Counted from the first letter of the stretch, positions 15 through 61,142 are shown. The stretch: DNA of 64,000 nt from Dermatophilaceae bacterium (GCA_035691065.1 DASSJT010000063.1:19489-83488), one strand, 5' to 3'. Translations and numbers: made by a program. The notes: generated from the letters alone by a model not told the origin.

Positions 15-605
15 GTGGCGCATGCCAGGACTCTCAACATCGTCGCAGTCGAGATGGGCTGGACTCCCGAGTGGCGGGTCTCCCGGCCGCCCGACGTGCC
101 GCTGACTCTGGAGGTGCCGCGGGGGCCGCACCACGCGCTCTCGCTCGCGGACATCGCGGCCGACAGCTCGGACGAGGTGCCGCTCCAGGCGAAGTTCCGC
201 ACCGGCGCGACGCCGACGTGGCACTGGCCCGACGAGCGCGAGCTGGCCGGGTTCATCCGCTCCGCCGTCGACCACGAGCTGGCGTTCAAGCTGACCGGCG
301 GTCTCCACCACGCCGTCCGCGGCACCTACCCGGGGGACCCGGCGGATCTCAGCAGCGCGCCGGAGGAACAGCACGGGGTGCTCAACGTCCTGTGCGCGGT
401 GCGGTGGGCCCTCAACGGGGACGAGGTCGGCGAGCTGGCGTCGGTGCTCTCGGAGCGCGACCCGGCCGTTCTCGTGCCGATGGTCACCCGCATGAGCAGC
501 GCCGACGCGAGCATTGTGCGGGCCTTCTTCACGGCATACGGCTGCTGCACGGTGACCGACCCGATCGGCGAGCTCGCCGCCCTCAACCTGATCCAGGAGC
601 CCTGA
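15..605 (+). CDS. hypothetical protein (possibly 5' truncated by the window edge)
   Basis: 196-aa ORF whose stop lies 1 nt before the fahA start. The frame stays open back to position 3, so the true start may lie upstream of the window. No family recognised by eye (contains KLTGGLHHAVRG). Likely co-transcribed with fahA. Confidence 0.45.
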   Translation: MAHARTLNIVAVEMGWTPEWRVSRPPDVPLTLEVPRGPHHALSLADIAADSSDEVPLQAKFRTGATPTWHWPDERELAGFIRSAVDHELAFKLTGGLHHAVRGTYPGDPADLSSAPEEQHGVLNVLCAVRWALNGDEVGELASVLSERDPAVLVPMVTRMSSADASIVRAFFTAYGCCTVTDPIGELAALNLIQEP

Positions 606-606
606 G

Positions 607-1887
607 ATGGACATGCCAGCGACGTCCTGGCTCGAGCTTCCCGCCGACCATCCCTTCGGCCTTGCCAACCTGCCCTATGGCGTCTTCTCGACGCCTGGCA
701 CGCCTCCGAGAGTCGGTGTTCGCATGGGCGACCTGGTGCTCGACGCCCCAGCGGTGGCGGCACTGGGCGGCGACCCGGGCGATGGTCCCGACCTGGCCAA
801 GGCCTGGCGGCACGCCAGCCTCAACGCCTTCCTAGACCTCGGGCGCCCAGCGTGGAACGTGGCGCGGTGGTGGCTCACCGAGATCTTCTCCGACCCGGTG
901 CACCAGGCGGGCGTCGAGCCGCATCTCATCCCGGTCAGTGAGGTGACGATGCACCTGCCGATCGAGGTTGCCGACTATGTCGACTTCTACGCGAGCGAAC
1001 ACCACGCGGCCAACGTCGGGCGCATCTTCCGGCCCGACTCCGAGCCGCTCACGCCGAACTGGAAGCACCTGCCCATCGGCTACCACGGCCGCTCGAGCAC
1101 GGTCGTGGTCAGCGGCACTGGCATCGTGCGCCCCTGCGGACAGCGCAAGGGCAAGGGCGATCCGGCGCCGGTGTTCGGGCCCAGCGTGCGGCTCGACATC
1201 GAGGCCGAGCTGGGGTTCGTGGTCGGGAGTCCGACCCGGGTGGGCGAGCCGGTGCCGGTCGAGGCGGCCGACGAGCACCTCTTCGGCGTGGTCCTGCTCA
1301 ACGACTGGAGCGCCCGCGACATCCAGGCCTGGGAGTACGTGCCCCTGGGGCCGTTCCTCGGCAAGTCCTTCGCCACGTCCATCTCGCCATGGGTGGTGAC
1401 GCTGGACGCCCTGGCGGCGGCCCGTGTGCCGCTTCCGGCCCAAGACCCCGAGCCCCTCCCCTACCTCCGCGGGGAACCGGGCGAGAGGCGAGGGGAGGGC
1501 GGAGCCGCGGGTGCGCCCGTGTACGGGCTCGACCTCGACTATGAGGTCGAGTGGAACGGCACGGTGGTGAGCCGGCCCCGCTTCCGCGACATGTACTGGT
1601 CGCCTGCGCAGATGCTGGCGCACCTGACGGTCAACGGGGCGAGCGTGCGGTCGGGCGACCTGTTCGGGTCGGGGACGATCTCCGGACCCGAGAAGGACTC
1701 CCGGGGCAGCTTCCTCGAGCTGTCCTGGAACGGCCAGGAGCCCGTAGTCCTCAACGACGGTTCGACGCGGACCTTCCTCGAGGACGGCGACACCGTGGTG
1801 CTGCGGGCGACCGCGCCAGGCCCGGGCGGGTCGGTGATCGGCCTCGGGGAGTGCTCGGGCACGGTCCTGCCAGCGCGGCGGGCGTGA
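607..1887 (+). CDS. fahA: fumarylacetoacetase (fumarylacetoacetate hydrolase)
   Basis: 426 aa. N-terminus SWLELPADHPFGLANLPYGVFS and a FAH-fold C-terminal half (LLNDWSARDIQAWEYVPLGPFLGKSF) are typical of fumarylacetoacetase. Clustered with hppD. Confidence 0.9.
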   Translation: MDMPATSWLELPADHPFGLANLPYGVFSTPGTPPRVGVRMGDLVLDAPAVAALGGDPGDGPDLAKAWRHASLNAFLDLGRPAWNVARWWLTEIFSDPVHQAGVEPHLIPVSEVTMHLPIEVADYVDFYASEHHAANVGRIFRPDSEPLTPNWKHLPIGYHGRSSTVVVSGTGIVRPCGQRKGKGDPAPVFGPSVRLDIEAELGFVVGSPTRVGEPVPVEAADEHLFGVVLLNDWSARDIQAWEYVPLGPFLGKSFATSISPWVVTLDALAAARVPLPAQDPEPLPYLRGEPGERRGEGGAAGAPVYGLDLDYEVEWNGTVVSRPRFRDMYWSPAQMLAHLTVNGASVRSGDLFGSGTISGPEKDSRGSFLELSWNGQEPVVLNDGSTRTFLEDGDTVVLRATAPGPGGSVIGLGECSGTVLPARRA

Positions 1888-2005: not shown

Positions 2006-2015
2006 CGCCGCCTGG

Positions 2016-2999
2016 TCAGCCGTGGCGACGCGGCGGCTGGCGGCCCACGACCACCACGGTGCCGGCGACCTTGTCGTGCAGGGCCTGCCGCTGCGGGTCG
2101 AAGGCGGGGAAGATGTGGTCCAGCGCCCACAGCGGGAGCGACAACAGGCTGATCCCCTGGACGTTGCCCAGCGCGTCGATCACGGCGACAAAGCCGTAGC
2201 GCCGCAGGGCGGTGGAGAAGCTGAGGGTGCCCGGCTGGTCGCGGAGCCGCACGCTGATGTTGGCGAGCCGCTTGCCCGGTGTGGCACCCCAGCGCATGAG
2301 GAAGAAGACGTTGTAGACGACGCCGACGGCGATCCCGAGGAACGAGAACCCGAGCATCCAACCGGTGTCCACGTTCTGCAGGGCGTCCATGTAGCCCGCC
2401 CAGTCACCCCGCTGCAGGGCGCTGGTCATGGGGTCCAGGACCGGCTGGATCGCGCGGTACAGGAACACCCCACCCAGGAGCAGCACCAGCACGTAGCGGA
2501 TCACACCGTCCATGAAGAAGGCCCCGACGCGCACGCCGTAGGAGGCGAGTGGGACGCCGTCGGGAGTCGTCGGGCCACGCTGGCCTGCGTACGGGGCCTG
2601 CCAGCCGGCGCCAGGCTGCTGCCCCGGCTGCTGCCCGGGCCATGGACCCTGCGGCTGGCCCTGCCGCTGGTCAGGTGCCTGACCCTGGTACTGCTGGCCG
2701 CCCGGGTACCAGTGCCCCTGCCCTCCGGGAGGCTGCCCTCCCGGGGGCTGCCCAGCGCCCGGCCAGCCCCCCGGCTGGTGCCAGGACTGCTGGGAGGGAT
2801 GCCTCGAGCTCGCCTCTCCGGCGTTGTCTCCGCCCGCGGACGGTGTCGGGCCGCTGGTCGGCGCCTGGCCGGCATACCGGCTGTCGGTGCGGGTGCGGCG
2901 AGGCGTCGTGTGCTGGGTCCAGACCACCCCGTCGAAGTAGCGAAGCTGGTCAGGCTGCTGCGGGTCGTCGTACCACCCCGGGCCCTGCGGCGTCTCCAT
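2016..2999 (-). CDS. RDD family membrane protein with DUF2510-like N-terminus and a Pro/Gly/Gln-rich linker
   Basis: N-terminal GWYDDPQQPDQLRYFDGVVWTQH motif, about 130 aa of PGQ low complexity, then a C-terminal multi-TM region ending in an RDD-type domain. Confidence 0.7.
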   Translation of the reverse strand: METPQGPGWYDDPQQPDQLRYFDGVVWTQHTTPRRTRTDSRYAGQAPTSGPTPSAGGDNAGEASSRHPSQQSWHQPGGWPGAGQPPGGQPPGGQGHWYPGGQQYQGQAPDQRQGQPQGPWPGQQPGQQPGAGWQAPYAGQRGPTTPDGVPLASYGVRVGAFFMDGVIRYVLVLLLGGVFLYRAIQPVLDPMTSALQRGDWAGYMDALQNVDTGWMLGFSFLGIAVGVVYNVFFLMRWGATPGKRLANISVRLRDQPGTLSFSTALRRYGFVAVIDALGNVQGISLLSLPLWALDHIFPAFDPQRQALHDKVAGTVVVVGRQPPRRHG

Positions 3000-3322: not shown

Positions 3323-5169
<1,847 letters not shown>

Positions 5170-5502: not shown

Positions 5503-7251
5503 TCAGCGGCGGCCCACGAACCACTCCCGGATCTTGGCGATGCGCGCGGTGACCTGCTCGGACGTGGCCTCCTCCAGTGGGGGGCCGCCACAGGTGCGGC
5601 GCAGGTCTATGTGCACGTTCGCGTGGGCCGCGCCGGTCTTGCGCGCGTACGCCGACACCAGCTTGTTGAGCTCCTTGCGCTGCCCGGCCAGCGCGCGGTG
5701 CGCCGCCACGGGCTCGGCGGCGCGGCGCGGCCGCGACGCGTGCCTCGCCTGCCGCTCGTGGAGCAGGGCGGTCACCTGGTCGGGTTCGAGCAGCCCGGGC
5801 AGCCCGAGGTAGTCCTGCTCCTCCTCCGATCCGACCTCGGCGTGCAGCCCGAACTGTTTGGCGTCGAAGAGCACGTGGTCGAAGTGGGCGTCCGACTCCA
5901 GCGCCTCGAACTGCGCGTCGTCGGGACCGACGTTGTTCTGGGCGCGGTTGGCCTCGGCGATCAGCGCCTCCTCCTCGGCCCACATGCTCGCTGCGGAGTC
6001 GACGCCGCGGATCCGGTCGAGGGCGTGGTCGCGCTCGTCCTCCAGCCGCGCCGCGTGCTCGAGGATGACCGGGACCGAGGGGAGGAATACCGAGGCAGTC
6101 TCGCCTCGGCGACGGGCCCGGACGAAGCGCCCGACCGCCTGCGCGAAGAACAGCGGTGTCGAGGTGGACGTCGCGTAGACCCCGACACAGAGACGGGGGA
6201 CGTCGACGCCCTCCGACACCATGCGCACGGCGACCATCCAGCGCTGGCTCCCCACGGCATACTCCTCGATCCGCGCGGACGCGCCCGCGTCGTCGGAGAG
6301 GACCACGGTCGGCCTTTCTCCGGTGAGGCTCTCGAGGATGCGCGCGTAGGACCTGGCCGACGTCTGGTGGGAGGCGATGACCAGGCCACCCGCATCCGGA
6401 ACGCCGCGGCGTACCTCGGTGAGCCGCTTGTCGGCCGCCGCGAGGACCGAGGGGATCCACTCGCCCCTGGGGTCGAGGGCGGTGCGCCACGCCTGCGCCA
6501 TGGCGTCCTTGGTGAGGGGCTCGCCGAGCCGGGCTGCGACCTCGTCGCCGGCCTTGGTGCGCCACCGCATGGCGCCGCCGTAGGCGAGGAACAGGACGGG
6601 GCGGACCACGCCGTCGCGCAGGGCTTCCGCGTAGCCGTAGGTGTAGTCGGAGGCGGAGCGCCGGATGCCGTCGTCGTCCAGCTCGTAGCGGACGAACGGG
6701 ATCGGCGAGGTGTCCGAGCGGAACGGTGTGCCGGTGAGCGCGAGACGACGGGTCGCGGGCTCGAAGGCCTCGCGCATGGCGTCGCCCCAGGAGCGGTTGT
6801 CGCCGCCGTGGTGGATCTCGTCGAGGATCACGAGGGTGGGCACGCGCTCGGTGCGGGTGCGGTGCAGGTCCGGCCGGCTGGCCACCTGGGCGTAGGTCAG
6901 GGCCACGCCGTGGTAGTCGCGGGAGTGGCGTGCCGAGGAGTTGGAGAAGCTGGGGTCCAGGTGGATCCCGACGCGCGCGGCGGCGTCGGCCCACTGGGTC
7001 TTGAGGTGTTCGGTGGGGGCGACCACGGTGATGGCCCGGACCTCGCCCCGGCCGAGCAGCTCGGCGGCGAGCCGGAGCGCGTAGGTCGTCTTGCCGGCTC
7101 CGGGCGTGGCGGCGGCGAGGAAGTCGCGGGCGTCGGAGGCCAGGTACTGGGACATCGCCGCAGCCTGCCAAGCCCGCAGCTTCGATGCCGTTCCCCACGC
7201 CGCGCGCTTCGGGAATGCTGGTGACAGGTGGGCGGCTGCGGCGGTACTCAT
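5503..7251 (-). CDS. SF2 DEAD/DEAH-box helicase
   Basis: 582 aa. Walker A ATPGAGKTT, DEIH box (VILDEIHHGG) and helicase C-terminal motifs. Lies next to DUF3039, as in many Actinobacteria. Confidence 0.85.
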   Translation of the reverse strand: MSTAAAAHLSPAFPKRAAWGTASKLRAWQAAAMSQYLASDARDFLAAATPGAGKTTYALRLAAELLGRGEVRAITVVAPTEHLKTQWADAAARVGIHLDPSFSNSSARHSRDYHGVALTYAQVASRPDLHRTRTERVPTLVILDEIHHGGDNRSWGDAMREAFEPATRRLALTGTPFRSDTSPIPFVRYELDDDGIRRSASDYTYGYAEALRDGVVRPVLFLAYGGAMRWRTKAGDEVAARLGEPLTKDAMAQAWRTALDPRGEWIPSVLAAADKRLTEVRRGVPDAGGLVIASHQTSARSYARILESLTGERPTVVLSDDAGASARIEEYAVGSQRWMVAVRMVSEGVDVPRLCVGVYATSTSTPLFFAQAVGRFVRARRRGETASVFLPSVPVILEHAARLEDERDHALDRIRGVDSAASMWAEEEALIAEANRAQNNVGPDDAQFEALESDAHFDHVLFDAKQFGLHAEVGSEEEQDYLGLPGLLEPDQVTALLHERQARHASRPRRAAEPVAAHRALAGQRKELNKLVSAYARKTGAAHANVHIDLRRTCGGPPLEEATSEQVTARIAKIREWFVGRR

Positions 7252-7807: not shown

Positions 7808-8395
7808 TCAGTTCATCGAGGGGTCTTCGGGGAAGGTCGCCACGAACGCGAGCTGGTCGCGCTGCCGCCGCAACACCCGCACCCACATGCCGGCCGGGTC
7901 GTCGCTGAAGGCGTCCCTGTTCTCGGCATCCACGACGTACCAGCTCCCCGTGCGGATCTCGACCTCGAGCTGCCCGGGCGACCAGCCGGCATACCCCGCG
8001 AAGATCCGCAGGCCGGCGATCTCGGGGATGACGAGTACGGGAGGCGTGTCGAGGTCGATAAGGGCGATGCCCCCGAAGAGCCGCTTCACTCCGAGGGGCT
8101 CCACGCCGTCGCCCGGGACGGTGACCAGCCCCAGCGCCGAGTCGAGCCCGACCGGTCCGCCCTGGAACAGCCGCTGTGGGCGGGTCGCGTGCTCCTGCCA
8201 GCCGGGCAGGACCGCCTCGATGTCCGCGTCCATGGGCCGGTTCAGGATCACGCCCTGGGCTCCGTCCTCGTCATGGTGCAGGAGCAGCACGACGCTGCGG
8301 TGGAAGATCCCGTCGCCGATCTGCGGGGTCGCCACCAGAAGCTGTCCGGTCAGGCTGTCGCCGTCCACAGATCCATTGTGCCCATGACAGGCCAA
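7808..8395 (-). CDS. YqgE/AlgH family protein (UPF0301)
   Basis: 195 aa. LTGQLLVATPQIGDGIFHRSVVLLLHHDEDGAQGVILNRP is typical of the family. Confidence 0.85.
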   Translation of the reverse strand: MACHGHNGSVDGDSLTGQLLVATPQIGDGIFHRSVVLLLHHDEDGAQGVILNRPMDADIEAVLPGWQEHATRPQRLFQGGPVGLDSALGLVTVPGDGVEPLGVKRLFGGIALIDLDTPPVLVIPEIAGLRIFAGYAGWSPGQLEVEIRTGSWYVVDAENRDAFSDDPAGMWVRVLRRQRDQLAFVATFPEDPSMN

Positions 8396-10731: not shown

Positions 10732-11148
10732 CTACCAGCGGCGCAGCCTCGCCCAGACCACGCCCACAGCGCCCCCGAGGCCCACCCCGACGAGGTCGGC
10801 GAGCGCGTCGAGCGGATCGCCCGTGCGATGCGGCAGGACGTCATGCTGGACGACCTCGCTCACCGGAGCGTGGACGGCAAGGAGCCCGAGGACGTATGCC
10901 GGTCGCAGCCGGGCCAGCACCCCCGCGGCTGCCGGGGCGGCGAAGATGAGGACGTGAGCGGCCTTGTCGGCCCACGAGAAGGGCTGCTCGACCGCGACCC
11001 GCGGCCAGTAGAGCGCGACGAGCTGGACCGCCAGCAGGAGCATGAAGGGCAGGGGCGCGAGTGCCGAGCGGGGGCGTTGGGTGGGCCCGGGATCGGCCGT
11101 CAGCGCACTCCCGGTGTCAGGTTCGCCGGGCTCGGGTGTGGTCGTCAC
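10732..11148 (-). CDS. VanZ-like family membrane protein
   Basis: 138 aa with 3-4 TM segments. ADKAAHVLIFAAPA and DPLDALADLVGVGLG resemble VanZ-like proteins. Its start overlaps the malic enzyme stop. Confidence 0.6.
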   Translation of the reverse strand: MTTTPEPGEPDTGSALTADPGPTQRPRSALAPLPFMLLLAVQLVALYWPRVAVEQPFSWADKAAHVLIFAAPAAAGVLARLRPAYVLGLLAVHAPVSEVVQHDVLPHRTGDPLDALADLVGVGLGGAVGVVWARLRRW

Positions 11149-14593: not shown

Positions 14594-14595
14594 GC

Positions 14596-42562: not shown

Positions 42563-42680
42563 TCCACGCCGGCGAGACCGCCCGTCGGGGTGGGGATCCG
42601 GCTCGACCGCGACTGGCCAGCCGCGGTGACCCGGCCGCCTCAGGCTCTGGCCGGCATACCGGCTGGGGCTGTATTGGGAC

Positions 42681-46315: not shown

Positions 46316-46546
46316 GGCCCGGGCGCAACCTGGGAGTCATTGTTTGAGCTCGGCGCGGCATGTCAATCCCCAGTGACGTATGCCCGGCCGTCCACCGAGC
46401 CGCCTGACAATCGGGTCGGGGTCAACCAAGTCCTCGCCGTGAAGCCGGAGCCCGGCGGGGTCAGCGGGGTCAGCGGCATCCCACGGACACGCCAAGAACT
46501 GCGCGAGCGTCCCTCCGCGCCGGCTGAGTGACGATCCGAGGGAGTC

Positions 46547-51804: not shown

Positions 51805-54800
51805 ATGAACCTGACGTTGTCCATCGCGGTGCCGGAGGTGGGGACCCCGCCGGTCGACGTCGACGTCAGCGCACCACCCGGCACGACGGCCGGCGAGCTT
51901 GCGGTTCTGCTCGCTGCCGAGTTCGGCATGGCGAGTGGCCGGCTCCGATGCAGTACCGGATCCATTCCCGACGACGCGCCGGTTGGTTTGCCACCCCTCC
52001 TCCACAGGGCATGTCTGTCACTTGTCGCTCGCGGGCACCGTCAGTCGCGAGCACACCCGCGACCCACTCCGCTGGAACTCGCGGTTGTGTCGGGTCCGGA
52101 CTGCGGTCGACGGTTCCCTCTCGAGCCCGGCCGCCACGTGCTGGGGCGGGGTGCCGGAGCAACACTCAGGGTGGACGACCCGGGACTCTCCCGCACCCAC
52201 GCCATTCTCTCCGTAGGTCCCGACGGCATTCACGTGGCCGACGCGGGATCCACCAACGGCATGCATCTCGATGGAGAACCGGTGCCTCGAGCGGGCACAG
52301 CGCTAGCTCCCGGCCAGACACTCCGGGCCGGTCACTCCCTCATCCAGGTCCGGAGTCCTGGCGTGCGGCCCGCCGCCGTGGAGCCCGACGGCCACGGACA
52401 CCTGCTCGTCAACCGAGCGCCTCGGGTGCCCACTAAGACAGAGCCGGTGACGATCACACTCCCCACCCCGCCGGAGCGACGTCGCAGCGCGCGGCTCCCC
52501 TGGCTGGCAATGCTGCTGCCGCTTCCGGTGTGCGCGGTGCTGGCGGCGCTGATGGGCCCACAGCTGCTTCTGTTCACCCTGATGACGCCAGTCATGATGC
52601 TGGGAAACGCAGTGAGCGACCGGGTCACTGGGCGACGGGAGTATGCCGGTCAGCTGGCCGAGTTCGAACGTGCCAGTGCCGCTGTAGCACAGAGCGTCGT
52701 CGAGGTGTGTCGTCACGACGTAGCCATGCGCCGCATGAAGTCCCCGGATCCGGTCACCGTCCTCCAGACCGCCCAGGGGCCGGGCAGTCGGCTCTGGGAG
52801 CGGCGCCGAAGCGATCCCGATGTGCTCGCACTCCGTGTCGGAAGCGGAAATGTGCCGGCTTCGGTTCGCATCGTCGACCCGTCGGTGGGGCACCAGGGCC
52901 GCGTGCCCAGCCTTTCCGAGGCACCGGTGATCATCGACCTGGAACGCCTGAAAGTGCTCGGGATCGCAGGGCAGCGCCGTGAAGTCGCTCCCCTGCTCCG
53001 AAACATCCTTGGCCAGCTGACCACCCTCCATTCGCCGCGTGACCTGCGCCTGGTCGTGATTGCGGCACAAGAAGGCGCGGCGTCGGAATGGGGATGGGTA
53101 AGGCTTCTGCCCCACTGCGATGACGTGACATCGCTTGATCACGACCGATGTGCGTCGGTCATCGCAGCGCTCCAGCCGGACGGTGATGGGGCGCTGTCTC
53201 CTCATCGACGCCCGCACGCCGTCGAGCGGTCGGAGGCGGATGCCGAGACGGTGTGGAGCGGCACGCGAACAACGTTGGTACTCATGGGCTCCCGTGATCT
53301 GCGCGCCCAACCCGGCATCGCGCCTCTCCTGAGCCTGAGCCGGGGCACCGAGAACGGGCTGCGCATCATTGCCGTCGACGTTGATCGCTCTGCGCTCCCC
53401 CTGGAATGCCGAGCGGTGCTCGCCGTCGACTCCGATGGCGTCACAGCACACCTGGAGTCCCCAAACCACGAGGCGCCGTTCATCTTCGCGCCGGACGGAT
53501 GCAACGACTCCTGGGCGGAGCAGCTGGCCCGGGCGATGGCCTCGCTCAAGGACAACACGCCTGACGGTTCGACGGCCGTGCCTGAGGTGGTCCGACTCGC
53601 GGATCTGCATGGATCGGCCGTGTTCGACCCCGAGTCGATCGCTAGCAGCTGGACTTCATCCGCGGGTGTGACTGTCGCTGTCCTCGGCTCGGGCGCGGGC
53701 GGCCCGTTCTCGGTCGACCTGGTCCGGGACGGGCCTCACGTGCTGGTCGGTGGAACGACGGGGTCGGGCAAGTCGCAGCTACTTCAGACTCTGGTGGTCT
53801 CCCTGGCCCTTGCCAACCGGCCCGAGGATCTCGGGTTCGTGCTCGTCGACTACAAGGGTGGATCCGCCTTCAGTTCGTGCAGCAACCTCCCGCACACCGT
53901 CGGGATGGTCACCGACCTCGACGGCCATCTGGCGCAACGGGCCCTGCGGTCGCTGCGCGCCGAGCTGTCGCGTCGTGAACGGCTTTTCGCGAGAGTGGGT
54001 GCCACCGACTTCGACGACTACGGTGCCAAGGCAGGTGGAAACGACGAGACGCTCGGGCGGCTCGTGCTCGTCATCGACGAATTCCGAGCACTAGCAGAAG
54101 AGCTCCCCGAGTTCCTCGAGGAAATGGTGCGGCTGGCTTCGGTGGGCCGATCGCTGGGTGTCCACCTCGTCTTGGCAACGCAGCGGCCCGGCGGCATCGT
54201 CTCGGCTGACATCCGGGCCAACGTCAACCTGCGCATCGCCCTACGGTTTCGTGACCGCGTCGACAGCGAGGACGTCATCGAGTCGCCCGATGCGGCGGAG
54301 CTCGATGAGCGACATCGCGGTCGAGCGCTCGCCCGGTCTGGCGGTGGGCGGCTCATGGCATTCCAGACCGCGTGGCTTGGCGCCCGGGATCGGCAGGAGG
54401 AAGTGGCGGATCTGAGAGTCAGACGGCATGGTCTCCCGACGGGGGCGTATCCCGGGCCGTCGCCATCCGCCGACCTGAGAGGCCAGGATTCCCAACAGAC
54501 ACCCACGGACCTCGACCGGGTGGTCGCCGCCCTGTGTAGCGCCGCCGCGTCGGCCGGGTGCGCTCTCCCGCGACGACCCTGGCACCCACCCCTGCCCGAG
54601 GCTGTTCCACTCGATGACCTTGCGCCGTCCAGTGCGCCCAGCCACGAGGTCCGCGTCGACGGGCAAGCAATCGACCGGCCCCCTTTGGGGAAGGTGCCGG
54701 TGAGCGTCCCGTGGGGCTTGGCGGACGACCCGGCAGGTCAGCGCCAGCCCGTGTTCTGGTGGGACGGGGCGGGCAGTGCCAACTCCGCTGGTCATTGGAT

Positions 54801-56244
54801 CATCGGCGGTGCAGGGGGTTCTGGCCGCACGTCGGCCCTCCGGACGTTGGCCTTTGCGGCCACGCGACGACACATCGCCGACGACCTGCACGTGTACGTC
54901 ATCGACGGCTCCTCCAACGCCCTGCGGGCCCTCGAGAGCCTTCCCCATGTCGGGGCGGTCGTTCCTCGGGCCGACTTCGCTCGCGTCGTGCGGCTGGTCA
55001 ACCGCCTGGCCGGCGAAGTCGCCCGAAGACACCAGCTGCTCGCGGCCGCGGGCTTCTCCAGCCTGGACGAGTGGGTCGCATCCGTCGATGAGCACCAGGC
55101 CACCAGGGCTGGCACACCGGCATACCTGCTGCTGCTCGTGGACGACTGGGACCTGCTTTGGCGGGACAGCGAGCAGCTCGATCACGGCCAGACGGCGGAG
55201 CGGCTTGCCGGTCTGCTGCGCGAAGGCGGGCCGGTCGGGCTGCGGGCCGTTGTGACCGGCGATCGGAGTGTGCTGATCGGTCGCGGCACGGCTTGGGCCA
55301 CCCACCGGCTCGTCCTGCGTCTTGCGGATCCCGGTGACGCCGCTGTGGTGGGCGTTCCGCGTGACGCCATCCCGGGGCACCAGCCACCCGGCCGGGGGGT
55401 CGTGGCGGGCAGCGGGATGGAGCTACAGCTGGCCCACCTCGGGGAGGTGCCTGACGGGGCTGCGGCTGCTCGCGCCATCGCGGACCTCGCTGCGACCCTG
55501 CACGAGCCGGTGGTCAACCTCCCCTTCCGTGTGGCGACGATGCCTGCCGATGTGGTGACGACCCAGCTCACAGCGACCGCTCGGGGTCTGGAGTTCGCTG
55601 TGGGCGGCGAGGAATGCTGCACCATAGGGCTCGAGTTCGAGCGCCACGGCCGTCAGGTCCTGATCGCCGGGCCAGCACGCAGTGGCAAGTCCACGGCTCT
55701 GGCCACCCTTGCGCTGGCTGCTCGACGAAAGGGCTACCACGTCGCCATCGTCGCCCCCAACGGTGTGGAACGTGGTTCGGACCGCCTGGCGGAGCGCGCC
55801 TTCGACGTGGTCGGCAGTGACGAGGCCGCGCGGCTGTCAGCGCTGTGCCGCGACCAACCCGACCTCGTCGTCTGTGTCGACGACGCTGACCAGCTGCTCG
55901 ACACCCCAGCCGAGGCCGTGCTTCGGGCGTTTCGGGGCACGCTCGACCGAACCAGTGGTGCCATCATCTGCGCCGCGAACTCGGTTGCCCTCGCCAGCCA
56001 GTTCCGGGGTGTCGCGGTCGAGGTCAGTCGCCACCAGACCGGACTGCTGCTCAGCCCCCGGACCGTCGCCGACGGAGACCTCTTGGGGATCCGGGTGCCC
56101 AGGGGAACGGCCAGCCACCACCCGGGTCGGGGCTTCTTCGCCTGTCGCGGCGAAGCCGTCGAGGTGCAGGTCGCTCGGCCGCCAGACATGGCGAACCGAC
56201 CGGAGAGAAACCGACCGGACAAGCGGGCTCAGCCCTTGACGTAG
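51805..56244 (+). CDS. FHA domain-containing FtsK/SpoIIIE-family triple-ATPase (EssC/EccC-like architecture)
   Basis: 1479 aa. FHA region aa ~90-175 (GRHVLGRG...LRVDDPGLSRTHAIL...STNGMHLDG), two TM segments aa ~231-270, and three P-loops: GGTTGSGKS (aa 649-657, Walker B VLVIDEF), GGAGGSGRT (aa 1001-1009) and GPARSGKST. Confidence 0.85.
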   Translation: MNLTLSIAVPEVGTPPVDVDVSAPPGTTAGELAVLLAAEFGMASGRLRCSTGSIPDDAPVGLPPLLHRACLSLVARGHRQSRAHPRPTPLELAVVSGPDCGRRFPLEPGRHVLGRGAGATLRVDDPGLSRTHAILSVGPDGIHVADAGSTNGMHLDGEPVPRAGTALAPGQTLRAGHSLIQVRSPGVRPAAVEPDGHGHLLVNRAPRVPTKTEPVTITLPTPPERRRSARLPWLAMLLPLPVCAVLAALMGPQLLLFTLMTPVMMLGNAVSDRVTGRREYAGQLAEFERASAAVAQSVVEVCRHDVAMRRMKSPDPVTVLQTAQGPGSRLWERRRSDPDVLALRVGSGNVPASVRIVDPSVGHQGRVPSLSEAPVIIDLERLKVLGIAGQRREVAPLLRNILGQLTTLHSPRDLRLVVIAAQEGAASEWGWVRLLPHCDDVTSLDHDRCASVIAALQPDGDGALSPHRRPHAVERSEADAETVWSGTRTTLVLMGSRDLRAQPGIAPLLSLSRGTENGLRIIAVDVDRSALPLECRAVLAVDSDGVTAHLESPNHEAPFIFAPDGCNDSWAEQLARAMASLKDNTPDGSTAVPEVVRLADLHGSAVFDPESIASSWTSSAGVTVAVLGSGAGGPFSVDLVRDGPHVLVGGTTGSGKSQLLQTLVVSLALANRPEDLGFVLVDYKGGSAFSSCSNLPHTVGMVTDLDGHLAQRALRSLRAELSRRERLFARVGATDFDDYGAKAGGNDETLGRLVLVIDEFRALAEELPEFLEEMVRLASVGRSLGVHLVLATQRPGGIVSADIRANVNLRIALRFRDRVDSEDVIESPDAAELDERHRGRALARSGGGRLMAFQTAWLGARDRQEEVADLRVRRHGLPTGAYPGPSPSADLRGQDSQQTPTDLDRVVAALCSAAASAGCALPRRPWHPPLPEAVPLDDLAPSSAPSHEVRVDGQAIDRPPLGKVPVSVPWGLADDPAGQRQPVFWWDGAGSANSAGHWIIGGAGGSGRTSALRTLAFAATRRHIADDLHVYVIDGSSNALRALESLPHVGAVVPRADFARVVRLVNRLAGEVARRHQLLAAAGFSSLDEWVASVDEHQATRAGTPAYLLLLVDDWDLLWRDSEQLDHGQTAERLAGLLREGGPVGLRAVVTGDRSVLIGRGTAWATHRLVLRLADPGDAAVVGVPRDAIPGHQPPGRGVVAGSGMELQLAHLGEVPDGAAAARAIADLAATLHEPVVNLPFRVATMPADVVTTQLTATARGLEFAVGGEECCTIGLEFERHGRQVLIAGPARSGKSTALATLALAARRKGYHVAIVAPNGVERGSDRLAERAFDVVGSDEAARLSALCRDQPDLVVCVDDADQLLDTPAEAVLRAFRGTLDRTSGAIICAANSVALASQFRGVAVEVSRHQTGLLLSPRTVADGDLLGIRVPRGTASHHPGRGFFACRGEAVEVQVARPPDMANRPERNRPDKRAQPLT

Positions 56245-57269: not shown

Positions 57270-58124
57270 TCAGGGAAGCTCGCGGCGCGAGCCCGATGTC
57301 AATGCGGCGAGGAGGCCCAACAGCGCAACCACAAGCACGGTGCCGCCGATCAGGCCTTGGCCACCCTGGAACAAGCCCCACGCCACAGGCAGCAGCAGGG
57401 CGTTCCAGACGGCGGTCGGCGTTCCCGGCCATCCCGCGCCGCGCCACCAGGCCACAGCCAGCACAGCCAGCGCGACCGCGAAGATGGCGATGAGCACGAT
57501 CGACATCACCACACGTACCGGGTTGTCGCTCTCCCCCCGTGCGAGGCCAACCGCATAAAAGCCGCAGATGCCCAGGAGCGCCAGCGCTTGAAGACCGGAC
57601 ACGACTGACGCGAGCGTCCTTCCGGCGGTGCGGGGGGTCGACGACCCCTCGGGCGGGCTCGACGTCTGGTCCTGCCTGCCGTCTGGCAGGTTCGACGCCT
57701 GGTCCTGCCTGCCGTCCGGCGGGCTCGACGTCTGGTCCTGCCTGCCGTCCGGCAGGTTCGACGTCTGGTCCTGCCTGCCGTCCGGCGGGTTCGGCGCCTG
57801 GTTCTGCCTGCCGTCCGGCGGGTTCGGCGCCTGGTCCTGCGTGCTCCCCGATGCGTCTCGCCCATTGCCCGGCTTCGCGGTTCCCGGCGTGGCGCGTGGC
57901 GTGGCTCCCCGGGCGGCGCCCCGGGACGTGGCCGCCCCGGCCTTGCGTTCCCTGCTGCGGCGAGGCCGGCTCTGGGGTGAAGTCACGCCAGCAAGAGTAG
58001 CCACGCATGCATTGATCTCCGAGGAGTGGGCACAGGACCCCAATGACTGTTTCCAGCGCACGAACGCGGACCCCCGACGAGCGCGCGAGCCGTGCACCCG
58101 GCATACTGGAGTGGCAGGTTCCAC
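57270..58124 (-). CDS. hypothetical membrane protein with 11-aa tandem repeats
   Basis: C-terminal 4-TM domain (LQALALLGICGFYAVGL...). The N-terminal region is PPDGRQDQTSN x ~5.5. The start is uncertain. Confidence 0.55.
   Translation of the reverse strand: MEPATPVCRVHGSRARRGSAFVRWKQSLGSCAHSSEINACVATLAGVTSPQSRPRRSRERKAGAATSRGAARGATPRATPGTAKPGNGRDASGSTQDQAPNPPDGRQNQAPNPPDGRQDQTSNLPDGRQDQTSSPPDGRQDQASNLPDGRQDQTSSPPEGSSTPRTAGRTLASVVSGLQALALLGICGFYAVGLARGESDNPVRVVMSIVLIAIFAVALAVLAVAWWRGAGWPGTPTAVWNALLLPVAWGLFQGGQGLIGGTVLVVALLGLLAALTSGSRRELP
57650..57850. repeat. 33-bp in-frame tandem repeat, about 6 copies
   Basis: CTGGTCCTGCCTGCCGTC recurs at 57666, 57699, 57732, 57765, 57798 and 57831. Confidence 0.85.
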
Positions 58125-58814: not shown

Positions 58815-60320
58815 TCAGTCGGTCACTCCTGCCGGACGGGCGTCCCGCTCCAGCGGCCGCAGCATCGCATTGAACTGCACGCGGGTGCCATGCGGTTTGG
58901 CCGGCTCCCAGCGGATCCGGCCGCGCAGGTCCTGGACGAGCGAGGTGACGATCCTCGTCCCGAGCCCCGCGAGCCCTGGACGGAAGCCGGCCGGCAGCCC
59001 GGCCCCGTTATCGGTGATGGTCACGGTCAGCTGGTCCTCGCCGTCTACGGGCTCTCGATGGGCAGCGATCTCGACCCGGCCACCGTGGTCGCCCAGGCCG
59101 TGCTCGGCGGCGTTCTGCACCAGCTCGGAGATGATCATCGCCAGCGCGGTTGCGTCCTCGGCTCGCATCCGCCCGAACGTGCCGGTCACCGACGACTCGA
59201 TCGTGTGCTCGCTCGTCGCCACCTCGACGACTGCCTTCAGCCCCCGCACCGCGATCTCGTCGAAGTTCACCGTCTCGTCGAACCCCTGGCTGAGCGTCTC
59301 GTGCACGAGGGCGATCGTGCCCACCCGCCGCACCGCCTCCTCCAACGCGTAGCGGCTCTGCCCCTCGGGCATCCGCCGCGCCTGCAGCCGCAGCAGTGCC
59401 GCCACGGTCTGGAGGTTGTTCTTGACCCGGTGGTGGATCTCCCGGATGGTCGCATCCTTCGTGAGCAGCTCGCGCTCCCGGCGCCGCAGCTCCGACACGT
59501 CGCGCAGCAGGATCAGGGCCCCCCGCCGCTGGCCGCGCTCGGTGAGCGGGATGGCGCGCATCGACACACTCGCCATGCGCGAGGCCACTTCCGAACGCCA
59601 GGGCGCTCGGCCGGTGACGACCAGGGCGAGGGACTCATCGACCGGGTCCTCGGCCTTCTCGACCACGTCGGCAACCACCTTGGACAGCACCTCGCCGATC
59701 ACGTCACCGACGTGCCCGAGGCGGTGGATCGCCGACACCGCGTTGGGGCTGGCGTAGACCACGACACCTTCGGTGTCGAGGTGCATGACGCCGTCCCCCA
59801 CCCGCGGCGCCCCGCGCCGGAGCCCGGTCGGCGCCGAGGCATTCGGGAACTCCCCCGCCGCGATCATGGCGGCCAGTGAGTCGCCCAAGGCCCGGTAGGT
59901 GACCTCGAGCCGGCTCGGTGTGCGAGCGCCGCCCAGGTTGGTATGCCGGGTGATCACCGCCAGCGCCCGCCCGTCCTTGACGACAGGGATGGCCTCCTCG
60001 CGCACCGGCACGTTGTCGTCGAAGTCGGCGCCGGAGTCCCGCACGATCGACCTGGTTGCGTAGGCCTCGCTCAGCATCCGCCGTCGGCCGATCCCGCTGC
60101 TCCATCCCACGATGTCCTCGTAGAACACCATCTGGCCGGTGGTCGGGCGCACGTGAGCCACCGATACCCATTCCTCGTCGGACTGCCGTGCCCAGAGCAC
60201 GAGGTCGGCGAATGACAGGTCGGACAGCAGCTGCCAGTCGCCGACCACCAGGTGCAGCCACTCGATCTCTTCTGCAGAGAGGTCTGTGGTGCGCTGGAGC
60301 GAGTCGTTCAGCGTTGCCAC
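58815..60320 (-). CDS. pdtaS: sensor histidine kinase PdtaS-like (GAF-PAS-HisKA_2-HATPase)
   Basis: 501 aa. N-terminus EIEWLHLVVGDWQLLSDLSFADLVLW, H-box IHHRVKNNLQ, and ATPase motifs (ELVQNAAEHG, DNGAGLP). Confidence 0.85.
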   Translation of the reverse strand: MATLNDSLQRTTDLSAEEIEWLHLVVGDWQLLSDLSFADLVLWARQSDEEWVSVAHVRPTTGQMVFYEDIVGWSSGIGRRRMLSEAYATRSIVRDSGADFDDNVPVREEAIPVVKDGRALAVITRHTNLGGARTPSRLEVTYRALGDSLAAMIAAGEFPNASAPTGLRRGAPRVGDGVMHLDTEGVVVYASPNAVSAIHRLGHVGDVIGEVLSKVVADVVEKAEDPVDESLALVVTGRAPWRSEVASRMASVSMRAIPLTERGQRRGALILLRDVSELRRRERELLTKDATIREIHHRVKNNLQTVAALLRLQARRMPEGQSRYALEEAVRRVGTIALVHETLSQGFDETVNFDEIAVRGLKAVVEVATSEHTIESSVTGTFGRMRAEDATALAMIISELVQNAAEHGLGDHGGRVEIAAHREPVDGEDQLTVTITDNGAGLPAGFRPGLAGLGTRIVTSLVQDLRGRIRWEPAKPHGTRVQFNAMLRPLERDARPAGVTD

Positions 60321-60329
60321 GACCGCAGC

Positions 60330-61142
60330 CTATGCGGGCGATCCCAGCAGCTCGACGTGCGGTATCACGAACAGGGCGCCGGGTGCAGTGCCCCAGGCGC
60401 GGAACGCCTCCGCGATCGCCTCGAGGTCATCCGGCGTGGCGAGCCGCCGCTCGACCGCCTGCCGCGCGAAGTCGGAGGCCACGCTGCGCTCAGCCCACGA
60501 CTCGGCCCACCAGGACACCTGATCGGTTGTCGCCCAACACCACGCCGAGGCACTCAGGCGCAGGTCGCGAAGACCCGCCTGCTCGGCCCAAGACCGAAGG
60601 TGCCTCCCGGCATCCGGCTCGGCGTCGTTGCTGCGCGCAACCCGCTGGTAGAGCTGGGCCCACCTGTCGAGGCCGGACAGCCGCGGGTACCACGCCATGG
60701 CCGCATAGTCGGCGTCCCGCGCGGCCACGGTGCCGGCCGGCCGGCATACCCGCGCCATCTCGCGCAGGGCGGCCACCGGGTCGGTGAGGTGCTGGAGCAC
60801 CTGGTGGGCATGGACGACATCGAAGCTGTCGTCGCCAAAGGGCAGGCTTGTGACGTCGCCCAGCGCGAGGGCCGCGCCGTCGATGCCGGCCAAGGTGGCC
60901 CGGGCGGTGTCCAAGGGTGCGGGCACCGCTTCGAGGCCCACGGCGGTGCCGCCCACCGCACGGGCGAGGTCGGCTGTGATCGTGCCCGGTCCGCAGCCCA
61001 CGTCGAGCAGGCGCAGCCCCGGCTTGAGCAACGGCAGGAGGTATGCCGCGGAGTCGCCTGCCGTGCGCCGGGCGTGGCTCCCAAGGACGCTGGCATGGTG
61101 GCCGTGGGTGTAGCGCCCCTTGGCTGGTTCGGATGCCGCCAT
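60330..61142 (-). CDS. class I SAM-dependent methyltransferase
   Basis: 270 aa from the ATG at 61142, with motif I LLDVGCGPGTIT. Confidence 0.8.
   Translation of the reverse strand: MAASEPAKGRYTHGHHASVLGSHARRTAGDSAAYLLPLLKPGLRLLDVGCGPGTITADLARAVGGTAVGLEAVPAPLDTARATLAGIDGAALALGDVTSLPFGDDSFDVVHAHQVLQHLTDPVAALREMARVCRPAGTVAARDADYAAMAWYPRLSGLDRWAQLYQRVARSNDAEPDAGRHLRSWAEQAGLRDLRLSASAWCWATTDQVSWWAESWAERSVASDFARQAVERRLATPDDLEAIAEAFRAWGTAPGALFVIPHVELLGSPA

What the first reader, a model, noticed from the sequence alone, without database searches (positions are those of the whole stretch)
533..61047. Hyper-abundant non-palindromic octamer CGGCATAC / GTATGCCG written into both coding and non-coding DNA
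By manual scan I find 44 copies of the heptamer GGCATAC/GTATGCC, 22 in each orientation. Of these, 43 extend to the octamer CGGCATAC; the exception is at 46378. With about 70% GC, a composition-only model predicts about 2-3 octamer hits on both strands in 64 kb (my rough estimate). Enrichment is therefore an order of magnitude or more, with mean spacing of about 1.5 kb. Eighteen copies sit in the small non-coding fraction: 4569, 16647 (inside ssrA), 16866, 23503, 23554, 26073, 27385, 27506, 27558, 28721, 33200, 37932, 38323, 38333, 38358, 42653, 46378, 58100. They often lie in loops or stems of hairpins downstream of genes. Twenty-six copies lie inside CDSs in all three frames and are built from codons that should be disfavoured in such a GC-rich genome. 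Ala-Tyr is written GCA-TAC 11 times, 7 of them as ACG-GCA-TAC (Thr-Ala-Tyr). Tyr-Ala is written TAT-GCC 11 times. The remaining four are GGC-ATA-CCG (Ile ATA, 30845), CGG-CAT-ACC (59941), GTA-TGC (60743) and GGT-ATG-CCG (41085). Other AY/YA dipeptides in pyc use GCC-TAC or TAC-GCC/GCG, so the motif-forming codon pairs are not the default. This points to selection, or a directed repair or mutation process, acting on the DNA word itself. I offer these hypotheses, all inference. (a) A DNA uptake sequence analogue: density of about one per kb, orientation balance and paired inverted copies at terminators resemble Neisseria DUS and Pasteurellaceae USS. Flp/Tad pili are required for natural transformation in Micrococcus luteus, and a Tad operon lies in this window. 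(b) A HIP1-like hyper-iterated word linked to a methyltransferase or repair system. (c) A binding word for a nucleoid-associated or FtsK-like protein.
Basis: partly seen in the sequence, partly recalled or inferred. Interest (0 to 1): 0.85.

Follow-up and report, generated by a model that had tools for sequence, protein, structure and literature searches.

The report
Hyper-abundant octamer word in Dermatophilaceae genomes
The eight-letter DNA word CGGCATAC occurs about 30 times more often than expected across this actinobacterial chromosome and in some of its relatives; genome-wide signature words like this are known mainly from the DNA-uptake sequences of Neisseria and Haemophilus and from HIP1 of cyanobacteria, I found no report of one in Actinobacteria, and what reads this one is unknown.

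Summary
CGGCATAC/GTATGCCG occurs 43 times in 64 kb (21+/22-). Nulls give about 1 (dinucleotide shuffles), 2.6 (3rd-order Markov) and 1.3 (empirical rate in 1.1 Mb of other high-GC actinobacterial loci). It is the only strongly deviant 8-mer. Inside CDSs, 26 copies compare with 2.3 under synonymous-codon shuffling. All 6 Thr-Ala-Tyr tripeptides are written ACG-GCA-TAC. The window comes from a Phycicoccus-like member of Dermatophilaceae. The same word is enriched 32-fold in Knoellia, Phycicoccus sp. 3266, Arsenicicoccus and several MAGs or metagenome contigs. It sits at baseline in interleaved relatives and in 52 other comparable actinobacterial loci. Terracoccus and Humibacillus carry a dialect, CGGCATCC. 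Sites are made by synonymous changes to rare codons and sometimes by amino-acid changes. They turn over between genera, yet are conserved 2.5 times better than ordinary aligned 8-mers. The word shows no strand or orientation skew, is not part of a longer repeat, and is about 5 times denser in non-coding DNA. A directional force therefore acts on the DNA word itself. My best guess (about 0.4) is a DNA-uptake-sequence-like self-recognition word. A HIP1-like methylation-linked word, a nucleoid-protein site and biased mutation or repair remain open. Chi/KOPS-type polar motifs are excluded. The Tad link is untested.

The parts
532..539 (+). word copy, coding (ACG-GCA-TAC, Thr-Ala-Tyr) in the ORF 3-605
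2870..2877 (+). word copy, antisense to the RDD/DUF2510 gene (TAT-GCC-G, Tyr-Ala-Gly)
4569..4576 (-). word copy, non-coding, divergent region between the HPPD-like and AsnC genes
6255..6262 (+). word copy in the ResIII/DEAD helicase gene (TAT-GCC-G, Tyr-Ala-Val)
7987..7994 (+). word copy in the AlgH-like gene (Tyr-Ala-Gly); orthologues in L011 and L015 have TAC-GCG/GCC
10366..10373 (+). word copy in the DEAD-box helicase gene, variable N-terminal region (Tyr-Ala-Gly)
10894..10901 (-). word copy, ORF status uncertain
13019..13026 (-). word copy, ORF status uncertain
14226..14233 (+). word copy, coding Thr-Ala-Tyr; shared with both Knoellia loci, while word-less relatives encode TAH, TAQ or TAS here
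14416..14423 (-). word copy, coding Tyr-Ala-Gly; shared with L003
16647..16654 (-). word copy inside tmRNA, in its hypervariable 5' stretch; only the window has it among 13 relatives
16866..16873 (-). word copy, non-coding, between ssrA and pyc
19633..19640 (+). word copy in pyc (ACG-GCA-TAC); L003 has ACG-GCC-TAC and other relatives encode K, S or R at the Ala position
21813..21820 (+). word copy in the membrane-protein gene 20761-22902 (Tyr-Ala-Gly); also a word in L016, and TAC in word-less relatives
22657..22664 (-). word copy, same gene, Thr-Ala-Tyr in an unalignable N-terminal region
23503..23510 (-). word copy, non-coding (M23 peptidase-smpB spacer); forms an inverted pair with 23553
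23553..23560 (+). word copy, non-coding; inverted partner of 23503 (42-nt spacer)
26073..26080 (-). word copy at the ftsE-ftsX junction
27384..27391 (+). word copy, non-coding (prfB-ftsE spacer)
27506..27513 (-). word copy, non-coding, next to a strong hairpin; forms an inverted pair with 27557
27557..27564 (+). word copy, non-coding; inverted partner of 27506 (43-nt spacer)
28721..28728 (-). word copy, non-coding, upstream of prfB
29989..29996 (-). word copy in the ORF 29591-30508 (GGC-ATA frame; no protein family found)
30844..30851 (+). word copy, ORF status uncertain
30943..30950 (-). word copy, ORF status uncertain
33199..33206 (+). word copy at the apex of a perfect 11-bp hairpin between two same-strand genes
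33837..33844 (+). word copy in the esterase-like gene (Tyr-Ala-Ala)
34555..34562 (-). word copy in the esterase-like gene (Thr-Ala-Tyr)
37932..37939 (-). word copy forming the apex and stem of the strongest hairpin (-47 kcal/mol over 60 nt)
38322..38329 (+). word copy, first of a non-coding cluster of three direct copies within 43 nt
38332..38339 (+). word copy, second of the cluster
38357..38364 (+). word copy, third of the cluster
40526..40533 (-). word copy, ORF status uncertain (upstream part of the long ORF 40124-42562)
41085..41092 (-). word copy, ORF status uncertain, next to the 30-bp tandem repeats
41451..41458 (+). word copy in the FAD monooxygenase gene (GCG-GCA-TAC, Ala-Ala-Tyr)
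42652..42659 (+). word copy at a hairpin apex (CCGG-CATA-CCGG) downstream of the monooxygenase gene
46378..46384 (-). degenerate copy: heptamer GGCATAC preceded by G instead of C
47051..47058 (-). word copy in the TadG-like pseudopilin gene (Thr-Ala-Tyr)
52641..52648 (-). word copy in the FHA-FtsK/SpoIIIE gene (Tyr-Ala-Gly)
55118..55125 (+). word copy in the FHA-FtsK/SpoIIIE gene (Pro-Ala-Tyr)
58099..58106 (+). word copy at or near the start of the ORF 57270-58124 (status uncertain)
59941..59948 (-). word copy in the PdtaS-type kinase gene (CGG-CAT-ACC)
60742..60749 (+). word copy in the class-I SAM methyltransferase gene (GTA-TGC-CGG)
61041..61048 (-). word copy in the same gene (GCG-GCA-TAC)

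Best explanation
CGGCATAC is a lineage-specific genomic signature word of a subset of Dermatophilaceae. Shown: a persistent directional force acting on double-stranded DNA, regardless of strand, gene orientation or reading frame, keeps the word about 30-fold above background at about 0.66 copies per kb. Under an equilibrium model, the word-to-neighbour ratios imply a scaled advantage of roughly S = 3.3-4.3 over each compared one-mismatch neighbour. The force works against codon preference, occasionally changes amino acids, creates new copies and preserves old ones. Its specificity has shifted in sister lineages: CGGCATCC in Terracoccus and Humibacillus, and different preferred bases at position -1. 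Inferred: the force is most likely of the DNA-uptake-sequence type. Under this reading, a surface DNA receptor of a natural-transformation machine binds DNA that carries the word. Conspecific fragments carrying the word are then taken up and recombined more often than fragments lacking it. That bias both spreads new copies and repairs decayed ones, which is molecular drive, possibly reinforced by selection for self-DNA uptake. Which protein reads the word is unknown. Candidates are a Tad/Flp-pilus pseudopilin such as those at 46.4-48.4 kb, or another competence protein.
For: The word is real and unique in the window. It exceeds the synonymous-codon null 11-fold. Eligible tripeptides are saturated: TAY 6/6 and YAG 6/11, with rare codons. 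Use is 13 sense and 13 antisense. Orientation is 21/22 in the window and 81/74 over ten word-bearing loci. Density is about 2.2 per kb in non-coding DNA against 0.43 per kb in coding DNA. The word does not belong to any longer repeat family. The distribution is lineage-specific: 0.66 per kb in 235 kb from 10 word-bearing loci, 0.03 per kb in word-less family members and 0.021 per kb in 1.12 Mb of other actinobacteria. A dialect, CGGCATCC, reaches 0.93 per kb in Terracoccus and Humibacillus. The preferred base at position -1 differs by lineage: A in 13/17 copies of L208, G in 11/15 of L206, and C or A in the window. Copies are created by GCC/GCG to GCA and TAC to TAT changes. Some were created by several coordinated changes, including non-synonymous ones (SmpB codon 49 in L003; the gene 20761-22902, codon 116, in L012; ftsE codon 207 in L016). 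Sites are conserved above background: 20/38 against about 0.21 for any aligned 8-mer. These traits match published properties of DUS/USS: about 1 per kb, both orientations, presence in genes and intergenic DNA, biased reading frames and family-level dialects (PMC3630211; 10.1101/2025.10.24.684340). Natural transformation through Flp/Tad pili exists in another actinobacterium, Micrococcus luteus (PMC4322843), and a Tad locus lies in the window.
Against: No member of this family is known to be naturally transformable, and no com genes lie in the window. The word has 8 bp, against cores of 9-12 bp for USS and DUS. Only two inverted pairs exist, with 42-43-nt spacers. Association with hairpins is not significant overall, and there are no T-tailed terminators. 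One-mismatch variants are at baseline (ratio 0.96), and the transition precursor is depleted 2-10-fold. By my recollection, one-off USS are enriched in Haemophilus. Above-background conservation is the argument used for selection on HIP1, not for drive (PMC5861425). Word-bearing and word-less lineages are interleaved on the pyc tree, so several losses or horizontal spread are required. One 70%-GC siphovirus-like contig (L173) carries 6 copies in 14.8 kb, so the word is not confined to chromosomal DNA.
Confidence: 0.4

Rival explanations
1. A HIP1-like word: a hyper-iterated octamer that contains the target of an orphan DNA methyltransferase. Selection maintains it for a chromosome-level role such as nucleoid structure, or for methylation-dependent enhancement of transformation and recombination, as is now proposed for HIP1 itself. 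In the second case this rival merges with the uptake reading.
For: The word is an octamer with 32-fold over-representation, inside the 15-300-fold range reported for HIP1 (PMC5861425). Sites are conserved between genomes 2.5 times better than ordinary 8-mers, which is the same argument used for selection on HIP1. Lineage-specific variants exist, and HIP variants track methyltransferases (PMC4390886). The word is present in coding and non-coding DNA without strand bias.
Against: The word is not palindromic, whereas HIPs are defined as palindromes recognised by palindrome-specific methylases. No DNA methyltransferase lies in the window; the only methyltransferase gene, 60330-61337, is of the small-molecule class-I type. 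A fully specified asymmetric 8-bp methylase target would be unusual (my own knowledge of restriction-modification specificities). Periodicity cannot be assessed in 64 kb.
Confidence: 0.22
2. A recognition site for an abundant, non-polar DNA-binding protein, such as a nucleoid-associated protein, a condensin loader or a defence 'self' marker. Weak selection on each of a few thousand sites would maintain it.
For: The apparent scaled advantage of about S = 4 per site lies in the range of weak selection such as codon bias (derived). Sites are conserved above background. Spacing is fairly even: coefficient of variation 0.85 and largest gap 5.6 kb. A phage contig also carries the word.
Against: Selection would have to override codon preference and protein sequence at thousands of sites. 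Close relatives do without the word entirely. I know of no nucleoid-associated protein with an asymmetric, fully specified 8-bp site at this density. Some copies are clustered 10-25 nt apart (38322-38364).
Confidence: 0.15
3. A neutral by-product of sequence-specific mutation or repair. One version is a cytosine methylase acting on GTACGCCG (GGACGCCG in the dialect lineages), whose m5C deaminates to give GTATGCCG. Another is a context-specific mismatch-repair bias. The word itself would have no function.
For: The main route of creation is a single G:C to A:T transition at a CpG, at position 5 of the word. The matching precursor CGGCGTAC is depleted 2.2-3.7-fold. In the dialect genomes, CGGCGTCC is depleted 8-10-fold.
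Against: A simple hotspot conserves the sum of precursor and product. Here that sum is 1.7-3.5 times baseline, and the word alone exceeds the whole precursor pool. The word is 28-71 times enriched relative to each compared neighbour at positions 5, 6 and 7, not only relative to the transition precursor. Several copies arose by multiple coordinated substitutions at other positions, including amino-acid changes. Copies are conserved above background even though they use disfavoured codons. The direction of change is opposite to Vsr-type repair (my own knowledge).
Confidence: 0.12
4. A polar chromosome word, either a Chi-like recombination hotspot or a KOPS/AIMS-like FtsK guide.
For: The length of 8 bp and the asymmetry resemble Chi and KOPS. 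An FtsK/SpoIIIE-family gene lies in the window.
Against: There is no orientation bias: 21/22 in the window and 81/74 over ten loci. The FtsK-like gene has the FHA plus multi-ATPase architecture that I recognise, from my own knowledge, as typical of secretion ATPases of the EssC/EccC type. From my recollection, a 30-fold excess is far beyond known Chi or KOPS enrichments.
Confidence: 0.01

Closest known systems
DNA uptake sequences: DUS of Neisseriaceae and USS of Pasteurellaceae (collectively DUES)
   Same: A short, fully specified asymmetric word occurs at about 0.7 per kb on both strands without orientation skew. It is present in genes in a few preferred reading frames and is denser between genes. 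It is specific to a family and has dialects in sister lineages. Copies turn over, and some alter the encoded protein.
   Different: The word has 8 bp rather than 9-12 bp. The host is a high-GC Gram-positive with no demonstrated competence. Inverted-repeat terminator pairs are rare. One-mismatch variants are not enriched. No ComP-like receptor has been identified. Uptake bias is untested.
HIP1 (GCGATCGC) and related highly iterated palindromes of cyanobacteria
   Same: Both are octamers, tens-fold over-represented, found in coding and non-coding DNA and conserved between genomes above background. Both have lineage variants. The function is unresolved, and HIP1 has recently been linked to transformation.
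   Different: The word is not a palindrome. No associated methyltransferase is known. The phylum is different. Periodicity was not assessable.
Chi sites and KOPS/AIMS polar octamers
   Same: They are also asymmetric 8-mers over-represented on chromosomes.
   Different: Those are strongly co-oriented with replication and, as I recall, only modestly enriched. This word is orientation-neutral and 30-fold enriched.
Dcm/Vsr very-short-patch word bias in enterobacteria
   Same: A repair or mutation process tied to a specific short sequence skews word frequencies genome-wide and depletes a one-transition neighbour.
   Different: The direction here is G:C to A:T, not T to C. The magnitude is an order larger, the specificity is 8 bp, and the excess cannot be accounted for by converting the precursor pool.

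Membership tests
DNA uptake sequence (DUS/USS) | A hyper-abundant specific word, about 1 per kb, in both orientations without replication skew | tested here: met
   43 copies in 64 kb against an expectation of 1-2.6; 21+/22- in the window; 81+/74- over ten loci
DNA uptake sequence (DUS/USS) | Present in coding DNA in a few preferred frames and enriched in intergenic DNA | tested here: met
   Ala-Tyr and Tyr-Ala frames dominate; 2.2 per kb in non-coding DNA against 0.43 per kb in coding DNA
DNA uptake sequence (DUS/USS) | Family-restricted, with dialects in related lineages | tested here: met
   Enriched only in part of Dermatophilaceae; CGGCATCC in Terracoccus, Humibacillus and L254; the preferred base at position -1 varies by lineage
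DNA uptake sequence (DUS/USS) | Frequent inverted-repeat pairs that form transcription terminators | tested here: not met
   Only two inverted pairs, with 42-43-nt spacers. Folding energy around intergenic copies is not different from random (p=0.2). No T-tailed terminators overlap copies
DNA uptake sequence (DUS/USS) | Preferential uptake of word-bearing DNA by competent cells, through a specific receptor | not testable with these tools
   This needs uptake or transformation assays. A Tad locus with pseudopilin genes is present, but nothing links it to the word
HIP1-like highly iterated palindrome | An octamer 15-300-fold over-represented and conserved between genomes | tested here: met
   32-fold over the empirical baseline; 20/38 word sites conserved against 0.21 for any aligned 8-mer; criteria from PMC5861425
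HIP1-like highly iterated palindrome | Palindromic sequence | tested here: not met
   The reverse complement of CGGCATAC is GTATGCCG (direct reading of the sequence)
HIP1-like highly iterated palindrome | Contains the target of orphan DNA methyltransferases and is methylated | not testable with these tools
   No methylome data are available and no DNA methyltransferase lies in the window
Chi / KOPS / AIMS polar motifs | Strong co-orientation with the direction of replication | tested here: not met
   21/22 within one 64-kb stretch and balanced in every other locus
REP / MITE dispersed repeats | A longer conserved unit, essentially intergenic | tested here: not met
   Flanks are unconserved beyond position -2. 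No repeat family contains the word. More than half of the copies are inside genes

The most novel reading that the evidence does not exclude
This is a DNA-uptake-sequence system outside Proteobacteria; I found none reported in Actinobacteria. It would be an 8-bp self-recognition word with dialects (CGGCATAC, CGGCATCC and variants at position -1), read by a component of an actinobacterial Tad/Flp-type competence machine. That would imply that many Dermatophilaceae, including relatives of wastewater Tetrasphaera and Phosphoribacter, are naturally transformable and preferentially exchange DNA with their own kind.
Probability: 0.3. Interest if true: 0.92.

Novelty: new variant of a known kind. Interest (0 to 1): 0.8.

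Why it matters
Genome-wide signature words are rare. The well-studied cases are DUS/USS in two proteobacterial families and HIP1 in cyanobacteria, and they have shaped thinking about bacterial sex, self-recognition and molecular drive. A third, independent case would test which features are general. This one sits in a high-GC Gram-positive family, is asymmetric, and has clear dialects together with natural 'knock-out' relatives that lack it. The interleaved word-bearing, dialect and word-less lineages form a ready-made comparative design for finding the protein that reads the word. That has been difficult for USS and HIP1. In practice, the word could raise transformation efficiency in poorly tractable Dermatophilaceae. 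It could also serve as a taxonomic or binning marker and flag recently acquired DNA.

Tried and rejected
1. Longer repeat or MITE: a repeat search found many tandem coding repeats but no family that carries the word. Rejected.
2. Codon or dipeptide artefact: rejected by the synonymous-shuffle null, the non-coding enrichment and the word-less relatives.
3. Polar Chi/KOPS motif: rejected on orientation.
4. Pure m5C-deamination hotspot: the precursor depletion is real, but the mass balance fails. It is kept only as a low-probability rival.
5. Terminator association: not significant.
6. Placement in poorly conserved protein positions, a USS trait: 7 usable sites, mean conservation 0.64 against 0.70, p=0.26. 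Inconclusive.
7. Lower density in the lower-GC3 Tad/FtsK island: 3 copies in 9.9 kb against about 7 expected, not significant (own count).
It gave mostly chance hits, and low-GC phages with 5-7 copies were within the noise of their own top words. A stricter second scan gave 11 loci and nothing enriched. The one high-GC siphovirus-like contig, L173, carries 6 copies, but its host could not be assigned.
9. Source genome: an exact SmpB look-up found only two contigs of about 1.1 kb, one from an ENA assembly and one from a Logan assembly.
10. Literature: no paper in the library holds the word in this sense, and none links uptake sequences to this family or to Actinobacteria.
11. I ran no further search on Tad pilins, because presence or absence in individual contigs could not have been decisive.

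Full report
OBSERVATION. CGGCATAC and its complement GTATGCCG occur 43 times in the 64-kb window, 21 on the + strand and 22 on the - strand. Dinucleotide-preserving shuffles give a mean of 1.0 and a maximum of 5. The window is 70.4% G+C. In raw counts the word ties with pure-G+C octamers. Under a third-order Markov model it is expected 2.57 times (z=25). The next most deviant octamers are all overlapping sub-words, so no unrelated word behaves this way. The conserved core is exactly eight bases. Only positions -2 and -1 (C, then C or A) and +1 (C or G) show mild preferences.

NOT A CODING ARTEFACT AND NOT A REPEAT ELEMENT. In 42 crudely called CDSs (54.9 kb) there are 26 copies, 13 in sense and 13 in antisense orientation. 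Shuffling synonymous codons within each gene gives a mean of 2.3 and a maximum of 6. With a curated gene list, all 6 Thr-Ala-Tyr tripeptides are written ACG-GCA-TAC, and 6 of 11 Tyr-Ala-Gly tripeptides are written TAT-GCC-GGN. GCA is only 8% of Ala codons and TAT only 12% of Tyr codons. Both dominant frames place the word's positions 2, 5 and 8 at codon wobble positions. Non-coding DNA is about 14% of the window by my annotation and holds 19 copies: 2.2 per kb against 0.43 per kb in genes. One copy lies in the hypervariable 5' stretch of tmRNA, and none of 12 relatives has it there. A repeat search found many tandem repeats in the window but no dispersed family that carries the word. Four or five intergenic copies sit at the apex of strong hairpins (33199, 37932, 38322, 42652 and next to 27506). 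Taken together, windows around intergenic copies do not fold better than random intergenic windows (p=0.2). No T-tailed terminator overlaps a copy in the 23-43 kb region scanned.

WHO HAS IT. The window carries housekeeping genes: pyc, smpB, ssrA, ftsEX, prfB, malic enzyme and helicases. It also carries a Tad/Flp pilus locus at 46.4-51.8 kb (pseudopilin genes, two T2SSF-type genes and a CpaF-type ATPase gene). Next to that locus is a 1479-aa FHA plus FtsK/SpoIIIE-family gene. The closest pyc in one-genome-per-species GTDB is Phycicoccus sp. 3266 at 83% amino-acid identity, so the source is an unnamed Dermatophilaceae bacterium.

Counting the word in the 80 pyc-centred loci of up to 23 kb separates them cleanly.
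- Word-bearing loci:
  - Knoellia remsis, 23 copies
  - K. sinensis, 15 copies
  - Phycicoccus sp. 3266, 10 copies
  - MAG L016, 11 copies
  - Arsenicicoccus bolidensis, 5 copies in 12 kb
- Word-less family members, each with 0-1 copy:
  - Allobranchiibius
  - two further Phycicoccus-labelled genomes
  - MAG L009
  - Dermatophilaceae MAG L007
- Other actinobacterial loci: nearly all 0-2 copies (one has 3).

Among pyc-bearing metagenome contigs, seven of the eight at 78% identity or more, including a partial match at 83%, are clearly enriched. The eighth, L205, has 2 copies in 7.4 kb. The listed contigs at 76% identity or less are at baseline. Pooled, the word is at 0.66 per kb in 235 kb of word-bearing loci. 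It is at 0.03 per kb in word-less family members and at 0.021 per kb in 1.12 Mb of other 68-74% G+C actinobacterial loci. That is a 32-fold excess. Orientation is balanced everywhere, 81+/74- in total. On a pyc neighbour-joining tree, word-bearing lineages are interleaved with word-less ones. This implies an old trait with repeated loss, or horizontal spread of whatever causes it.

DIALECTS. Terracoccus (18 copies in 17 kb) and Humibacillus (20 in 23 kb) instead carry CGGCATCC. These copies are dispersed, occur in both orientations, and reach 0.93 per kb against 0.09-0.19 per kb elsewhere. A more distant metagenome contig, L254, shows the same variant. Among genomes with the main word, the preferred base at position -1 differs. 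It is A in 13 of 17 copies in L208, G in 11 of 15 in L206 and 8 of 11 in L016, and C (22) or A (13) of 43 in the window.

HOW COPIES ARISE AND PERSIST. Codon alignments of syntenic genes show copies made by single synonymous changes.
- In pyc of the window, ACG-GCC-TAC has become ACG-GCA-TAC.
- At the conserved Met-Tyr-Ala-Ala site of pyc, TAC-GCC has become TAT-GCC in Knoellia and L016, but not in the window or L003.

Other copies arose by several coordinated changes that include amino-acid replacements.
- SmpB codon 49 in L003.
- The gene 20761-22902, codon 116, in K. sinensis compared with K. remsis.
- ftsE codon 207 in L016.
- Tyr replaces His, Gln or Ser at codon 88 of the gene 13961-14593.

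Most copies are not shared between genera, yet they are kept better than average. In pairwise nucleotide alignments, 20 of 38 word sites are conserved as words, against about 0.21 for any aligned octamer. Between the two Knoellia species the figure is 6 of 8. One-mismatch variants as a class are at baseline (ratio 0.96). The one-transition precursor CGGCGTAC is depleted 2.2-3.7-fold. In the dialect genomes, CGGCGTCC is depleted 8-10-fold. The word-to-neighbour ratio is raised 28-71-fold for each compared neighbour at positions 5, 6 and 7. Under an equilibrium model this corresponds to a scaled advantage of S of about 3.3-4.3 for the whole word (derived).

WHAT THIS EXCLUDES. Protein- or RNA-level explanations fail on the sense/antisense equality and the non-coding excess. 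Polar motifs such as Chi and KOPS/AIMS fail on orientation. REP or MITE elements fail on anatomy. A pure m5C-deamination hotspot at GTACGCCG explains the main mutational route and the precursor depletion, but not the amount. A hotspot conserves precursor plus product, whereas the sum is 1.7-3.5 times baseline and the word alone exceeds the entire precursor pool. A hotspot also does not explain multi-substitution births or above-background conservation. Vsr-type repair works in the opposite direction (my own knowledge).

MOST LIKELY MECHANISM. It is shown that a persistent, orientation-blind force favours the complete 8-bp word in double-stranded DNA, and that its specificity evolves between lineages. 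It is inferred that this force is of the DNA-uptake-sequence type, in which word-bearing DNA is preferentially bound, taken up and recombined. This inference rests on the match to the published anatomy of DUS/USS: density, both orientations, presence in genes in a few frames and in intergenic DNA, and family-level dialects (PMC3630211; 10.1101/2025.10.24.684340). It also rests on the existence of Flp/Tad-pilus-dependent transformation in Micrococcus luteus (PMC4322843). I put this at about 0.4.

Several points count against it. Competence is unknown in this family. Inverted terminator pairs are scarce. One-off variants are not enriched. The conservation signal is the one used to argue for selection on HIP1 (PMC5861425).

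HIP1 itself is now proposed to enhance transformation in a methylation-dependent way and to act as an uptake signal (10.1101/2024.09.10.611283; 10.64898/2026.06.24.733823). A non-polar DNA-binding-protein site and a mutation or repair by-product remain possible at lower probability.

TAD LINK. The Tad locus is present and itself carries a copy (47051, in the TadG-like gene). Tad loci are widespread by my own knowledge.

NOVELTY. No paper in the searchable library contains the word in this sense. None links uptake sequences or hyper-iterated words to Dermatophilaceae, Intrasporangiaceae or Actinobacteria. I rate it a new variant of a known kind, the hyper-iterated genomic signature word. It is asymmetric, actinobacterial and has dialects. 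It is not yet assignable to the DUS/USS family, because uptake is untested and the terminator-pair feature is not met. It is not assignable to the HIP family either, because it is not a palindrome.

Noticed in passing
window 1844-2007, 9999-10227, 26356-26545, 32901-32990, 41115-41337, 45342-45444, 57613-57876, 35961-36831: There is an unusual number of short in-frame tandem repeat arrays (units of 12, 17, 18, 26, 30 and 33 bp, and a 174-bp FG-GAP repeat) inside or at the ends of genes. One is a 12-bp array in the C-terminal extension of ftsE, and another is a 33-bp array in the ORF 57270-58124.
   Followed up: no
window 25003-25104: Two tandem copies of a 51-bp unit, 90% identical, lie in the non-coding spacer between the M23 peptidase gene and ftsX.
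   Followed up: no
window 51805-56244 (+): A 1479-aa protein with an N-terminal FHA domain and at least two FtsK/SpoIIIE-type ATPase domains plus a third P-loop. The architecture is like EssC/EccC (my own reading). The gene is divergently adjacent to the Tad ATPase gene. Its relation to the Tad locus is unknown.
   Followed up: partly
window 16313-16679 (-): The tmRNA tag peptide is ANTKRTDFALAA. All 12 relatives examined have ANSKRTDFALAA or ADSKRTDFALAA.
   Followed up: no
L173 (IMGVR_UViG_3300027673_000039, 12525-27290): A 70%-G+C siphovirus-like structural module (tape measure, major tail and capsid/protease genes) carries 6 copies of the word in 14.8 kb, about 14 times the baseline. The host is unknown, and the nearest cultured relative of its capsid is Microcystis phage MinS1 at 50% identity.
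   Followed up: partly
L171, L118, L110, L170, L103 (IMG/VR contigs, 39-47% G+C): These low-GC phage contigs carry 5-7 dispersed copies of CGGCATAC in 12-14 kb. After allowing for the selection on two copies, the excess is no greater than that of other top words in the same contigs, so I treat it as chance.
   Followed up: yes
L015 6042-6717; L019; L021: Humibacillus has a tandem array in which copies of CGTACAAC recur every 36-99 bp over 6042-6717. L019 and L021 contain strongly repeated words (AACGGGAAAGGAAC-like and GGGCTTGACC-like) that may be CRISPR or other arrays.
   Followed up: no
L004 (Allobranchiibius), L018 (Nocardioides): There is a mild 4-6-fold excess of CGGCGTAC/CGTACGCC-type words, the CpG 'precursor' of the main word. 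It may be ordinary codon-pair bias and was not examined further.
   Followed up: no
L008, L012, L208 at position 9994 (-), 7 nt upstream of the pyc start: A copy of the word sits at the identical position just upstream of pyc in three genomes of at least two genera. This is the clearest case of a conserved non-coding copy.
   Followed up: no
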